Of a DNA stretch of 14,892 nucleotides, positions 12,001-14,892 are shown one piece after another. This stretch comes from a virus. Position numbers: made by a program. Position 1 is the stretch's first letter. Every line of letters begins with the position of its first letter. The stretch lies in UHGV virus genome UHGV-1742202, one strand, 5' to 3'.

Positions 12001-14892
12001 TTGTGCGCCAGATGCAGGATAAATTCCAGGTGCTGAAAGCTGTTCAGGAGAATATCCGTAAAACTGGCGGAAAAATAGACGACAGTAACAACGCTTATAT
12101 GGCGGAAGAACTCTTCCACGGGAAGGCGGAAAACGACCTGAACGTGATGAAGGAGCGCTACGTTCAGCCACTGGCTAAATTACTGGCGGACTACAAAATT
12201 GCGCAGGCCGATCTGGATGAGTACCTCTACGCCCGTCACGCGCCGGAACGTAACGCGCATATCGCGAAAATCAACCCGAAAATGCCGGACGGCGGTTCGG
12301 GGATGACCAACGCGGAAGCGGCGGAAATCATGCAGCGTGTGCGTAACAGTGGCAAACAGGCACAGTATGACCGTCTGGCAGGGATTGTTGACGATATGCT
12401 GGCTCGTCGCCGTGAGCTTATCCGTGAGGCCGGACTGGAAGAGAGCGGTGTGGTGGATGCCTGGCAGAACGCCTACCGTTACTACGTTCCTCTGAAAGGC
12501 CAGGATGTTGACGGTGTGGTGTCACTGCCCCGTACAGGTAAAGGCTTCACTATCGGCGGACGTGAAAGCAGGCAGGCCATGGGGCGTGCATCCCGCGCAC
12601 AGTCTCCGTCCACTCAGGCGATACAGGACTTGAGCGAATCGCTGATCCGCAATCGCAAAAATGAAGTAGGTAACGCCTTCCTGAAACTGGTACAGGATAA
12701 TCCAGACAAGGATTACTGGCAGGTATTCACCAATGAGCGACCGGACACCATGCGTGCGATTGCAGAGCGTGTTGATCCGGAAACCGGTGAAACCCGTCAC
12801 GAAGTTGTCGAACGTCCTGTACCGATGGCAATGATGGCAGACCGGTACTTCACCACCAAAAAGAACGGCAAAACGTACTACATCAAACTCCATGATCCGC
12901 GCCTGATGCGTGCGATGAAGAATATGGGACCGGAAACCAGTAACGCCGTAATCCGCACGCTGGGGAAAGTTAACCGCTTCCTGGCAACGGTGAACACGTC
13001 GTATAACCCGGAATTCCTGGTCAGTAACTTCATCCGTGACGTGCAGACGGCGGTGATGAACCTGAAGGCGGAGCAGGGAAGGAGCGACGGTAAACTGAAA
13101 GGGCTCGATAACTTATCCGCCCTGGCTGTGGTGAAAGACAGCCGGTCTGCCATGTCTGCCGTATACGCCCGTCTGCGTGGTAAAACCCTCACGGGCAACG
13201 GTGCGCAGTGGCAGAAGGTGTGGAAAGAGTTTGTTGAGGACGGAGGTAAAACCGGCTGGTTTAACATGGGTGACCTTGAAGGCCAGCAGAAGGAAATGGA
13301 TCGCCTTGTATCGCTGGCGAAGGGAGGATGGAAAGGCCAGAGTATCGGTGCATGGAATTCGTTCCTTAACCTTGTCGAGGATGCCAACGGGGCGGTTGAA
13401 AACGCTCTGCGTCTTTCTGCCTATAAACACGCCCGTGATGCTGGTTTGTCACGCCAGCAGGCGGCGTCTCTTGCCAAAAACATGACGGTGAACTTTAACC
13501 GTCGTGGTGAGCAGGGAGCGCTGATGAACTCGCTGTATATGTTTGCCAACGCCAGCATTCAGGGGACCGCAAACCTGGTGAGAACGCTCGGACATCTTAA
13601 TGGCGACGGGCCGTTACCGGAGCGCCTTCGCTGGAAGAATCTCAATGTACCGCAGAAAATCGCGCTTGCAGCTGTGGGAGCGGGTTATCTGCTTGGCTCG
13701 CTTAACCGCAGTGTTGCGGGGGAGGATGATGACGGGGTTAACTGGTATGACAAGGTGCCGTCTCATGTGAAAGAGCGTAACCTCGTCATTATGAAATCGG
13801 TGTTCGGGGGCAAGGCCGGAGAGTACTGGAGTATTCCTCTGCCTTACGGGTACAACGTTTTCTTCCTGCTCGGGCATACTGCTGAAGGTGTGGCAGCGGG
13901 CGACCTGACTGCTTCACGTGCTGCCGGTAATGTTGTCGGTGGTATCCTGGGGGCATTCAGTCCTGTGGGCAGTGAAACGTCGGAAACACTGTCCGGGGCA
14001 TTGCTGAAAAATGCAGCGCCGACCATTCTGCGTCCGTTTGCGAACCTTGCCATGAATGAAAACTTCATGGGGGCGCAGATTTACCAGGAGAACATGCCAT
14101 TTGGCACACCGAAACCGGACAGCCAGCTGGGCAGACGTTCAACGCCTGAGGCGTACAAGGCGTTTGCATCCTGGCTGAATGCGTTCTCAGGTGGCAGCCA
14201 GTATCGTCCCGGCGCGGTGGATATTACACCGGAATCGCTGAAATTCTGGATTGACTATATCTCCGGAGGGACAGGGCGCTTCATTTCCAAAACCACAGAT
14301 GCGGCGGTGAAATCGCTGAACGGTATTGATATACCGGAACAGCAGGTGCCCTTCCTGGGGAAAATTTCGGGTGAGGTGATGCCGTATGCTGACCAGCAGA
14401 AGATGTATGACCGGATGACGGAGGTTGCGCAGTACCACGCAGAGCTGAAGAGTCTGACCGGTGCAGAAAGAACGGCATTCATTGACGAGAACAACGGAAA
14501 ATTGTCGATGAACGGGCTTATGCAGGATACCCGGAAGAGACTGAAGGATTTGCGTAAACAGCGTGATGCCATTTATGCCGACAGTTCTCTCAGTCTGGCG
14601 CAGCAGGCGGCGATAGTGAAATCGGTAGAGCGGGATATGAAGGTTGCCGTGGATCGCTTTAACCGCGAGTACAACAAAAAAGTGGGAGTGGAGTAACAGA
14701 ACATGCCCCGTACTTTTGTACGGGGCATAACAGTACAATCAATGTGTATATATTTGTGTATATAGAAACAAGATGTTAGTGATGGTTTTATTGACAATGT
14801 ATTGATTTTATTATTGTTTTGCCTCTAACGATAATTACTATCGTAAGGCATACCATTCCTTATGTTTCAGAGGGTTAGCCATGGCACCCAAA

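What the first reader, a model, noticed from the sequence alone, without database searches (positions are those of the whole stretch)
13656..13970. C-terminal hydrophobic glycine-zipper segments suggest membrane insertion
KIALAAVGAGYLLGSL (nt 13656-13703) and AAGNVVGGILGAFSPVG (nt 13920-13970) are the only strongly hydrophobic, small-residue-rich stretches in an otherwise hydrophilic 2,783-aa protein. GxxxG/A-type zippers are typical of membrane-inserting helices in channel-forming ejection proteins.
Basis: inference. Interest (0 to 1): 0.45.

Follow-up and report, generated by a model that had tools for sequence, protein, structure and literature searches.

The report
Hydrophobic helices in Stx-phage giant protein
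The two greasy stretches are real helices inside the conserved tail-end module of a giant protein that Shiga-toxin phages carry in their capsids, but only the first is conserved as a fully apolar helix, neither is shown to enter a membrane, and the better membrane candidate lies at the other end of the protein.

Summary
The window is the late region of a 933W/phi24B-type Stx phage. The 2,783-aa ORF is the homologue of phi24B gp47, a virion-packaged polyvalent protein proposed to be an ejection protein.

Both peptides sit exactly where stated, inside a ~907-aa C-terminal module (aa 1877-2783) that includes Pfam LPD38. This module ends at least 21,591 protein clusters. AlphaFold2 (pLDDT 86, pTM 0.79) puts both segments in helices of a compact all-alpha fold with no solved relative.

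- **Seg1 (aa 2438-2453):** a family-wide apolar helix. All 143 representatives have a basic flank, 15 apolar residues, N-R, then an acidic GEDDDG loop. It is the most hydrophobic window of the whole protein in 46% of giants.
- **Seg2 (aa 2526-2542):** amphipathic. Its GxxxGxxxG is lineage-specific. What is conserved is an invariant F-x-P cap.

The claim that these are the only hydrophobic stretches is wrong. The top peak (aa 181-199) and an invariant glycine zipper (aa 413-425) lie in an N-terminal module. That module is homologous to the N4 virion RNA polymerase N-terminal domain, which is reported to enter nanodiscs.

Classical TM scales do not call either segment. They also miss proven membrane-active T7 and N4 ejection proteins. 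Membrane insertion is therefore unproven for seg1 and unlikely for seg2.

The parts
6345..14696 (+). Giant ORF of 2,783 aa. It is the homologue of phi24B gp47, a virion-packaged large polyvalent protein.
   Evidence: ORF list and translation. 95-99% DNA identity to 176 of 186 matching Stx and E. coli phage records, 90-95% to the other 10. Pfam LPD5, LPD1, MuF_C and LPD38. phrog_616 matches over the full length. gp47 proteomics and the ejection-protein proposal are in bioRxiv 10.64898/2026.04.10.717836.
11973..14693 (+). Conserved C-terminal module, aa 1877-2783 (~907 aa). It always sits at the extreme C-terminus of giant phage proteins and is far larger than the Pfam LPD38 model.
   Evidence: All 142 cluster representatives align from a median start of aa 1877 to the end. 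The profile finds 21,591 clusters at E<=1e-3, always C-terminal in proteins mostly of 1,100-5,200 aa. IMG/VR carriers are 1,385-3,458 aa when the ORF is complete, apart from one 604-aa ORF, and up to at least 3,960 aa for ORFs cut by the locus edge.
13740..14357 (+). Pfam LPD38 (PF18857) match, aa 2466-2671.
   Evidence: E = 3.4e-48, 164.7 bits against a cut-off of 27.
13647..13718 (+). Seg1 helix, aa 2435-2458. A basic N-flank (Q-K) is followed by 15 uniformly apolar residues, then N2454-R2455.
   Evidence: AlphaFold2 helix at model residues 285-308, pLDDT 90-96. No charged residue in 13 of the 15 core columns across 143 representatives. K/R at 2438 in 90%, N2454 in 83%, R2455 in 83%. Small residues at 2440 (92%), 2442 (91%), 2447 (87%), 2451 (81%) and 2458 (99%). 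It is the most apolar stretch of the module, with family-mean KD15 of 1.79 against 0.99 for the next.
13719..13736 (+). Acidic loop GEDDDG (aa 2459-2464), directly after the seg1 helix.
   Evidence: D2461 and D2463 are present in 99% of 143 representatives. Mean net charge of the C-flank is -4.1.
13836..13856 (+). Conserved PLPYGYN motif (aa 2498-2504), between the two segments.
   Evidence: Invariant or nearly invariant P, Y, G and N columns in alignment A1. Position.
13911..13970 (+). Seg2 helix (aa 2523-2537) with its cap G-[SA]-F-[SN]-P-[ILV]-G (aa 2536-2542).
   Evidence: AlphaFold2 helix at model residues 373-387, pLDDT 77-87. F2538 in 141 of 143 and P2540 in 143 of 143 representatives. 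Glycine at 2528 in 24%, at 2532 in 8%, at 2536 in 71%. Position 2529 is charged in 35%.
6792..7754 (+). N-terminal module (aa ~150-470), homologous to the N-terminal domain of the phage N4 virion RNA polymerase. It lies outside the finding but is the better membrane candidate in this protein.
6885..6953 (+). N-terminal hydrophobic helix, aa 181-203. It contains the most hydrophobic 19-residue window of the whole protein.
   Evidence: KD19 of 1.38. Helix at residues 180-202 in a low-confidence AlphaFold2 model.
7545..7619 (+). Conserved glycine zipper, aa 401-425 (GV...G413xxxG417xxxG421xxxG425).
   Evidence: G401, V402, G413, G417 and G425 are invariant and G421 is present in at least 90% of an alignment reaching down to 22-29% identity. 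Four consecutive GxxxG.

Best explanation
Both segments are structural helices of the conserved ~907-aa C-terminal module of a giant protein that the phage packages in its capsid and releases on infection. This module is the constant end of phage-type polyvalent proteins and contains Pfam LPD38.

Seg1 is the module's central apolar helix. Four turns carry no polar residue in any homologue, and two stripes of small residues run along the helix. Together these indicate that other helices pack closely against it on more than one face in the soluble, pre-ejection fold.

Seg2 is an ordinary amphipathic packing helix that ends in an invariant F-x-P turn. Its glycine zipper is a peculiarity of the E. 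coli and Salmonella lineage.

On this reading neither segment is a channel-forming transmembrane glycine zipper. If this protein contacts a membrane, the contact is more likely made by its N-terminal module, which resembles the N4 vRNAP N-terminal domain.

Shown here: the positions, the conservation, the helical state and the fold confidence. Inferred: burial of the helices and the absence of a membrane role.
For: - The AlphaFold2 model of aa 2151-2783 has mean pLDDT 86 and pTM 0.79 and is all-alpha. Seg1 lies in a 24-residue helix (pLDDT 90-96) and seg2 in a 15-residue helix (pLDDT 77-87).
- The same fold recurs in independently predicted viral LPD38 proteins down to 14-20% identity, with TM-score up to 0.83.
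- Seg1 has conserved small-residue positions at 2440, 2442, 2447, 2451 and 2458, plus conserved N2454-R2455. These indicate specific helix-helix packing.
- Seg2 has family KD19 median 0.98, charged residues at 2529, a non-conserved zipper, and invariant F2538 and P2540.
- Classical scales do not call a TM helix. For seg1, KD19 reaches 1.6 in 13% of representatives and the Hessa-type sum is never below 0. For seg2, KD19 reaches 1.6 in 1%.
- The rest of the module is rich in invariant polar residues and conserved loops, as expected for a folded soluble domain.
- The N-terminal module is homologous to the N4 vRNAP N-terminal domain, which is reported to enter nanodiscs. A C-terminal anchor is therefore not needed to explain membrane contact.
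Against:
- A helix with no polar residue in 143 homologues must be shielded from water, but it could be shielded by lipid as well as by protein.
- The seg1 flanks carry a conserved charge dipole (+2.5 and -4.1). This runs against the helix dipole and fits the positive-inside rule for single-pass anchors.
- Seg1's hydrophobic columns vary more than other hydrophobic columns of the module (2.38 against 1.88 bits, P = 0.04), as lipid-facing positions do.
- In 13% of representatives the stretch passes KD19 of 1.6. In some homologues N-R is replaced by apolar residues, giving 19-20 uninterrupted apolar residues.
- Membrane-active ejection proteins score no higher on the same scales: T7 gp14 1.31, T7 gp16 1.44, N4 gp52 0.90, N4 gp51 0.65. 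Failing the cut-offs is therefore weak evidence.
- The putative TM regions of T7 gp16 are globular in the virion (PMC8954989).
Confidence: 0.55

Rival explanations
1. Seg1 alone is a latent single-pass membrane anchor. It is buried in the soluble fold while the protein sits in the capsid. After ejection and refolding it is exposed and inserts into the inner membrane. Its basic N-flank would face the cytoplasm and its acidic GEDDDG flank the periplasm. Oligomerisation could occur through the small-residue stripe and N2454. This would parallel what is proposed for the TM regions of T7 gp16. Seg2 plays no part.
For: - The apolar 15-mer is universal in 143 representatives, with K/R before it and an acidic cluster after it.
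- It is the single most hydrophobic window of the whole protein in 56 of 122 giants, although its zone holds about 3% of their residues.
- Its hydrophobicity equals that of T7 gp14 and gp16 segments and exceeds that of N4 gp52 and gp51, which form channels.
- The putative TM regions of T7 gp16 are globular before ejection, and gp16 purifies as a soluble protein.
- phi24B gp47 is proposed to form or contribute to a trans-periplasmic conduit.
- An LPD38 protein is needed for efficient infection by phage PTXU04.
Against: - There is only one apolar helix, not a hairpin or a cluster.
- It has 15 apolar residues followed by a conserved N-R.
- A Hessa-type sum is never favourable, and the Wimley-White octanol sum is favourable in only half of the representatives.
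- The module halves on either side of seg1 are predicted as one compact body with pTM 0.79. That would have to be torn apart.
- No sequence or fold similarity to T7 gp14-16 or N4 gp50-53 was found.
- No experiment bears on it.
Confidence: 0.28
2. Seg1 and seg2 together are glycine-zipper transmembrane helices that line a channel formed by the C-terminal fragment.
For: - Both are helical and rich in small residues, and seg2 has GxxxGxxxG in this phage.
- They are the two most apolar stretches of the C-terminal module at family level.
Against: - The seg2 zipper is not conserved. Glycine occurs in 24% of representatives at 2528 and in 8% at 2532.
- Seg2 is amphipathic, with charged residues at 2529 and 2532 in many homologues.
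- The seg2 helix is only 15 residues long and ends in an invariant F-x-P turn.
- In seg1 the conserved small residues are spaced i, i+7, i+11 rather than in GxxxG register.
- The 70 residues between the two segments hold a conserved beta-hairpin and the PLPYGYN motif. They are not a short loop.
Confidence: 0.07
3. The C-terminal module is the device that gets the giant protein into the capsid, by binding the portal, scaffold or capsid interior. Seg1 is buried at an interface between subunits or with a partner protein, rather than in the monomer core or in lipid.
For: - The module is the constant C-terminal end of otherwise variable giants and is restricted to phages.
- gp47 is abundant in virions but invisible in reconstructions.
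- Many conserved surface-type loops (GEDDDG, PLPYGYN, NENF...PIY) suggest partner contacts.
Against: No partner has been identified. The monomer model is already confident without one. Nothing tested here distinguishes this reading from the best explanation.
Confidence: 0.1

Closest known systems
Pfam LPD38 (PF18857) domain of phage-type large polyvalent proteins; phi24B gp47
   Same: - The Pfam match is strong: 164.7 bits at aa 2466-2671.
- The domain set matches that reported for phi24B gp47: LPD5, LPD1, MuF_C and LPD38.
- Iyer et al. [quoted passage not shown]
- DNA identity to Stx phages is 95-99% in 176 of the 186 matching records and 90-95% in the other 10.
   Different: - The conserved unit is about 907 aa, far larger than the 189-position Pfam model.
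- Seg1 lies just upstream of the Pfam boundary.
- None of the papers I read describes the apolar helix, the acidic loop or the F-x-P cap.
T7 gp16, the largest T7 ejection protein, with two putative transmembrane regions
   Same: - Both are virion-internal, mostly alpha-helical, and the largest internal protein of the phage.
- Both carry clusters of marginally hydrophobic Gly/Ala-rich segments near each end. KD19 is 1.29-1.44 in gp16 and 1.04-1.38 here.
- The gp16 TM regions are globular before ejection.
- Relatives of the window protein carry an N-terminal lytic transglycosylase, as gp16 does.
   Different: - The window protein has no transglycosylase domain.
- It has one apolar helix in the C-terminal module rather than a cluster of three.
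N4 virion RNA polymerase gp50, a giant ejected protein (N-terminal domain, RNAP, C-terminal domain)
   Same: - Both are giant, packaged, ejected multi-domain proteins.
- The N-terminal module of the window protein (aa ~150-470) is homologous to N4 gp50 aa ~266-451.
- The N4 N-terminal domain has predicted membrane-spanning helices at aa 224-278 and is reported to enter nanodiscs.
   Different: - The homology concerns the N-terminus, not the segments of this finding.
- The N4 C-terminal domain shows no similarity to the LPD38 module. hhalign probability is 0.3% and hmmsearch gives no signal.
- The window protein has no RNA polymerase domain.
Transmembrane glycine zippers, GxxxGxxxG in channel-forming helices (from my own knowledge, not checked in a paper here)
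   Same: Seg2 has GxxxGxxxG in this sequence, and seg1 has GxxxG plus other small residues.
   Different: - The seg2 motif is not conserved, and seg2 is not TM-like in homologues.
- In seg1 the conserved small residues follow i, i+7, i+11 spacing.
- The only invariant glycine zipper in the protein is at aa 413-425 in the N-terminal module.

Membership tests
Pfam LPD38 / phage-type large polyvalent protein | Match to the PF18857 HMM above the gathering score | tested here: met
   164.7 bits against a cut-off of 27, at aa 2466-2671.
Pfam LPD38 / phage-type large polyvalent protein | Multi-domain giant protein of a phage that carries other polyvalent-protein domains | tested here: met
   LPD5, LPD1 and MuF_C lie in the same 2,783-aa ORF. 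The phage context includes tail fibre and Lom genes and 90-99% identity to Stx phages.
Pfam LPD38 / phage-type large polyvalent protein | Packaged in the virion | not testable with these tools
   Reported by proteomics for the homologues phi24B gp47 and JC1 gp69. Not tested for this sequence.
Transmembrane glycine zipper | A [GAS]xxxGxxxG motif that is conserved among homologues | tested here: not met
   Seg2 has glycine at 2528 in 24%, at 2532 in 8% and at 2536 in 71% of 143 representatives. Seg1 has no GxxxGxxxG, and its conserved small positions are 2440, 2442, 2447, 2451 and 2458.
Transmembrane glycine zipper | The motif lies in a helix hydrophobic and long enough to span a bilayer | tested here: inconclusive
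   Seg1 has 15 apolar residues in a 24-residue helix, KD19 of 1.22 (family median 1.34, reaching 1.6 in 13%), and an octanol-scale sum below 0 in 50%. Seg2 has KD19 of 0.89-0.98 and a 15-residue helix, so it does not meet the feature. Controls show that membrane-active ejection proteins score 0.65-1.44, so the scales do not decide the question.
Transmembrane glycine zipper | Demonstrated membrane insertion or channel activity | not testable with these tools
   Needs liposome, nanodisc, bilayer or reporter-fusion assays.
T7 gp16-like inner-membrane ejection protein | Sequence or fold homology to gp16 | tested here: not met
   [not shown]
T7 gp16-like inner-membrane ejection protein | N-terminal peptidoglycan hydrolase domain | tested here: not met
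   There is no lytic transglycosylase or lysozyme match in this protein. Such domains are present in relatives (JC1 gp69; LT_GEWL carriers).
N4 vRNAP N-terminal-domain-like module | Significant profile match to the N4 gp50 N-terminal domain | tested here: met
   [not shown]

The most novel reading that the evidence does not exclude
The giant LPD38 proteins are single-polypeptide ejectosome components anchored in the inner membrane at both ends. The N-terminal module, which resembles the N4 vRNAP N-terminal domain and carries an invariant glycine zipper, inserts first. The universally conserved apolar helix of the C-terminal module (seg1: basic flank, 15 apolar residues, N-R, acidic loop) acts as a second, latent single-pass anchor or channel-lining helix once the module unfolds and refolds after ejection. 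Under this reading a family with at least 21,591 protein clusters would share a previously undescribed membrane-insertion element.
Probability: 0.25. Interest if true: 0.6.

Novelty: already known. Interest (0 to 1): 0.3.

Why it matters
The protein belongs to the main carriers of Shiga toxin genes. Its family is very large, with at least 21,591 clusters at 50% identity, and has no known mechanism. One member is required for efficient infection.

Knowing which parts touch the membrane would tell how these short-tailed phages build a conduit across the cell envelope, and how they deliver their anti-defence cargo.

This analysis narrows the candidates to three elements. Seg1 is one conserved apolar helix in the C-terminal module. 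The other two lie in an N-terminal module that is homologous to the membrane-associating N-terminal domain of the N4 virion RNA polymerase. Seg2 is removed from the list.

As posed, though, the finding is a hydrophobicity observation inside an already catalogued domain of an already sequenced protein, without positive evidence of membrane insertion.

Tried and rejected
1. **Solved relatives of the C-terminal module.** None was found:
   - phmmer of the whole protein against PDB sequences;
   - profile search against PDB sequences;
   - Foldseek against the PDB, best E 0.34 with TM-score about 0.1;
   The weak Foldseek hits to membrane transporters (GltPh, SOS1) are not significant, and I gave them no weight.

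2. **Homology of the C-terminal module to known ejection proteins** (T7 gp14, gp15, gp16; N4 gp50, gp51, gp52, gp53). None was found.

3. **Homology of the N-terminal module to T7 gp16.** hhalign aligned the glycine-zipper region to gp16 aa 364-409 at 35% identity, but with probability 0.4%. The iterated HMM gave E = 600. Rejected.

4. **Classical TM scales as a decisive test.** Abandoned as decisive after the controls showed that proven membrane-active ejection proteins also fall below the cut-offs. The Hessa and Wimley-White values were typed in from memory, so those sums are approximate.

5. **AlphaFold2 of the N-terminal 480 aa.** The model was poor (pLDDT 56, pTM 0.53). I used it only for helix positions.

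6. **Word-index search with the N-terminal 480 aa.** It returned only close E. coli and Salmonella relatives. Distant ones had to be found by local phmmer and hmmsearch.

7. **Burial of seg1 and seg2 in the model.** This could not be computed, because coordinates are not exposed to the script environment.

8. **Literature.** The Xanthomonas phage preprint held nothing on giant or polyvalent proteins.
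Full report
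**What the window is.** The 14.9-kb window is the late region of a short-tailed Shiga-toxin-converting phage of the 933W/phi24B type.
- nt 12800-14696 match 186 phage records. Identity is 95-99% in 176 of them and 90-95% in the other 10. Nearly all are Stx-converting, Escherichia or Shigella phages.
- Upstream genes match an internal virion protein, a tail fibre, and Lom/Ail and other outer-membrane protein families.
- The finding lies in the ORF 6345..14696 (+), 2,783 aa.
- Pfam finds LPD5 (aa 1047-1190), LPD1 (1351-1430), MuF_C (1740-1829) and LPD38 (2466-2671).
- This is the same domain set reported for phi24B gp47 (2,811 aa). That protein is abundant in virions by proteomics but invisible in cryo-EM. 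[quoted passage not shown]
- Iyer et al. [quoted passage not shown]
- An LPD38 protein of E. coli phage PTXU04 is needed for efficient infection.
- The Bcep22-like phage JC1 packages a 4,515-aa relative with an N-terminal transglycosylase and a C-terminal LPD38.

**Checking the observation.**
- The two peptides are exactly where stated: aa 2438-2453 and 2526-2542. The protein is hydrophilic overall (mean KD about -0.63).
- The statement that these are the only strongly hydrophobic stretches is wrong. The top 19-residue window is aa 181-199 (1.38). Seg1 is second (1.22), aa 407-425 third (1.07), and seg2 seventh (0.89).
- aa 409-425, GAALGAAMGAPFGAAAG, has four consecutive GxxxG.
- None of these windows reaches the classical Kyte-Doolittle value of 1.6.
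- In shuffles of the same composition, peaks this high are the rule (57% and 81% of shuffles). On this sequence alone, the hydrophobicity is not beyond chance.

**The segments belong to a much larger conserved module.**
- The last 633 aa find homologues that align end to end at 30-54% identity, always finishing at the protein's C-terminus.
- A profile of 56 of them matches 21,591 cluster representatives (9,396 at E<=1e-30). The match is always at the extreme C-terminus. The listed carriers are mostly giants of 1,100-5,200 aa, and the few shorter ones include database fragments.
- In IMG/VR contigs, most carriers with a complete ORF are 1,385-3,458 aa, with one of 604 aa. ORFs cut by the locus edge reach at least 3,960 aa.
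- Against 142 representatives, the conserved unit in this protein starts at a median of aa 1877. It is therefore about 907 aa, against 189 positions in the Pfam model. Seg1 sits just outside the Pfam boundary.

**Structure.**
- AlphaFold2 with this alignment gives a confident all-alpha model of aa 2151-2783 (mean pLDDT 86, pTM 0.79).
- Seg1 lies in a 24-residue helix (aa 2435-2458, pLDDT 90-96). Seg2 lies in a 15-residue helix (aa 2523-2537, pLDDT 77-87) followed by a turn.
- Between them are the acidic loop, a short beta-hairpin and the conserved PLPYGYN motif.
- The fold recurs in predicted structures of viral LPD38 proteins down to 14-20% identity (TM-score up to 0.83). These include PTXU04 and carriers with transglycosylase, RelA/SpoT or methylase domains.

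**Seg1 across the family.** In 143 sequences, each representing a different 50%-identity cluster, the pattern is universal:
- Q2437, then K/R at 2438 (90%).
- Fifteen apolar residues, with no charged residue in 13 of the 15 columns.
- N2454 (83%) and R2455 (83%), then three residues.
- An acidic loop with D2461 and D2463 at 99%.
- Residue identity within the apolar stretch varies. Small residues are kept at 2440 (92%), 2442 (91%), 2447 (87%), 2451 (81%) and 2458 (99%). This gives stripes with i, i+7, i+11 spacing that indicate close helix-helix packing on more than one face.

Further points on seg1:
- It is by far the most apolar stretch of the module, with family-mean KD15 of 1.79 against 0.99 for the next, which is seg2.
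- It is the single most hydrophobic 19-residue window of the entire protein in 56 of 122 giants, although its zone holds about 3% of their residues.
- The flanks carry a conserved charge dipole, mean +2.5 before and -4.1 after.
- On TM scales it is marginal. Best KD19 has median 1.34 and reaches 1.6 in 13%. The octanol-scale sum is favourable in 50%. The Hessa-type sum is never favourable.

**Seg2 across the family.**
- The helix is amphipathic. Position 2529 is N, D, F or E and is charged in 35%. Position 2532 is often L, M, K or N.
- The GxxxGxxxG of this phage is not conserved: glycine in 24% at 2528, 8% at 2532 and 71% at 2536.
- What is conserved is the cap G-[SA]-F-[SN]-P-[ILV]-G, with F2538 in 141 of 143 and P2540 in 143 of 143.
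- This is a packing helix ending in a fixed turn. It is not a membrane-spanning zipper.

**Calibration with proven cases.** I ran the same scales on ejection proteins whose membrane activity is documented.
- T7 gp14 and gp16 peak at KD19 1.31 and 1.44, with Gly/Ala-rich segments much like those here. T7 gp15, which does not bind liposomes, peaks at 0.84.
- N4 gp52 and gp51 form channels in bilayers (PMC13434306). They peak at only 0.90 and 0.65.
- Classical cut-offs therefore do not discriminate in this class of protein. Seg1's failure to reach them is weak evidence against a membrane role.
- The review PMC8954989 also notes that gp16 purifies as a soluble protein and that its putative TM regions are globular in the virion. 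A confident soluble fold does not exclude later insertion either.

**A better membrane candidate elsewhere in the protein.**
- Across divergent giants, hydrophobic peaks fall in two places: the seg1 position, and a cluster of Gly/Ala-rich segments in the N-terminal few hundred residues.
- In this protein, aa ~150-470 form a second conserved module. phmmer gives E 1e-22 to 1e-40 to distant giants at the same N-terminal position.
- In an alignment reaching down to 22-29% identity, G401, V402, G413, G417 and G425 are invariant and G421 nearly so. This is a truly conserved glycine zipper.
- This module is homologous to the N-terminal domain of the N4 virion RNA polymerase:
  - PHROG vRNAP family, E = 0.018;
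  - hhalign, E = 1.1e-4, probability 56%;
  - an iterated HMM of 65 giants hits N4 gp50 aa 266-451 at E = 8.6e-8 for a nominal database of one million;
  - N4 aa 101-560 alone hits two LPD38 giants at E ~5e-10.
- The N4 paper predicts membrane-spanning helices at aa 224-278 of that domain. It reports that the isolated domain incorporates into nanodiscs. It also models the rest of the polymerase as refolding in the cytoplasm, tethered to the membrane.
- The N4 C-terminal domain shows no similarity to the LPD38 module.
- The AlphaFold2 model of aa 1-480 is poor (pLDDT 56). It supports only that the hydrophobic segments are helical.

**Interpretation.**
- The best-supported reading (about 0.55) is that both segments are structural helices of the soluble, pre-ejection fold of the C-terminal module. 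Seg1 is its central, fully shielded helix and seg2 is an amphipathic packing helix. Any membrane contact by this protein is more likely made by the N-terminal module.
- The main rival (about 0.28) is that seg1 alone is a latent single-pass anchor, exposed after ejection. Support comes from its universality, its charge dipole (which fits the positive-inside rule and opposes the helix dipole), the slightly higher variability of its hydrophobic columns (P = 0.04), and the T7 gp16 precedent.

**Novelty and verdict.** The protein and its LPD38 domain are already catalogued. The sequence is nearly identical to known Stx phage genes, so the finding itself is not new. In the papers I read, I did not find described:
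- the true extent of the C-terminal module;
- the anatomy of the conserved apolar helix with its acidic loop;
- the invariant F-x-P cap;
- the homology of the N-terminal module to the N4 vRNAP N-terminal domain.

These make specific, testable targets, but none shows membrane insertion. Interest 0.3.

Noticed in passing
[not shown]
   Followed up: yes
window 7545-7619 (aa 401-425): This is a truly conserved glycine zipper, GV...G413xxxG417xxxG421xxxG425. G401, V402, G413, G417 and G425 are invariant down to 22-29% identity. It is followed by basic residues and a long acidic, proline-rich linker. It is a much better zipper than either C-terminal segment.
   Followed up: partly
window 11973-14693 (aa 1877-2783): The conserved C-terminal unit is about 907 aa, far larger than the 189-position Pfam LPD38 model. 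Its profile finds 21,591 cluster representatives, always at the extreme C-terminus, mostly of 1,100-5,200-aa proteins. It has no solved structural relative.
   Followed up: yes
window 13719-13736 (aa 2459-2464) and the flanks of seg1: The acidic loop GEDDDG is almost invariant (D2461 and D2463 at 99%). Seg1 carries a conserved charge dipole, +2.5 before and -4.1 after, which opposes the helix dipole. The function is unknown. It could be a membrane topology signal, a metal site or a partner contact.
   Followed up: partly
window 10164-10178 and 10965-10979 (aa 1274 and 1541): There are two HExxH motifs, HEWFH and HEIIH, in the middle of the giant protein between and after the LPD5 and LPD1 matches. 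They are candidate zinc-peptidase sites of the kind proposed to process polyvalent proteins. I did not examine them further.
   Followed up: no
L082 (phage T7 genes 14-16) and L084/L085 (phage N4 gp50-52): Documented membrane-active ejection proteins score below the classical TM cut-off on Kyte-Doolittle 19-residue windows: T7 gp14 1.31, T7 gp16 1.44, N4 gp52 0.90, N4 gp51 0.65. Simple hydropathy thresholds should therefore not be used to accept or reject membrane segments in this class of protein.
   Followed up: yes
window 13614-13877, minus strand: An 87-aa ATG ORF on the opposite strand overlaps the finding. The plus-strand frame is conserved at protein level in thousands of homologues, so this ORF is most likely spurious. 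I did not test it.
   Followed up: no
window 3358-5076: Three small genes sit between the tail-fibre gene and the giant ORF. They match outer-membrane or membrane-associated protein families: phrog_557, phrog_425, and Lom/Ail (Pfam PF06316, E = 3.5e-29). These are moron-type lysogenic-conversion genes. In phage PhiR12_3 the genes between Lom and the giant ORF differ.
   Followed up: no
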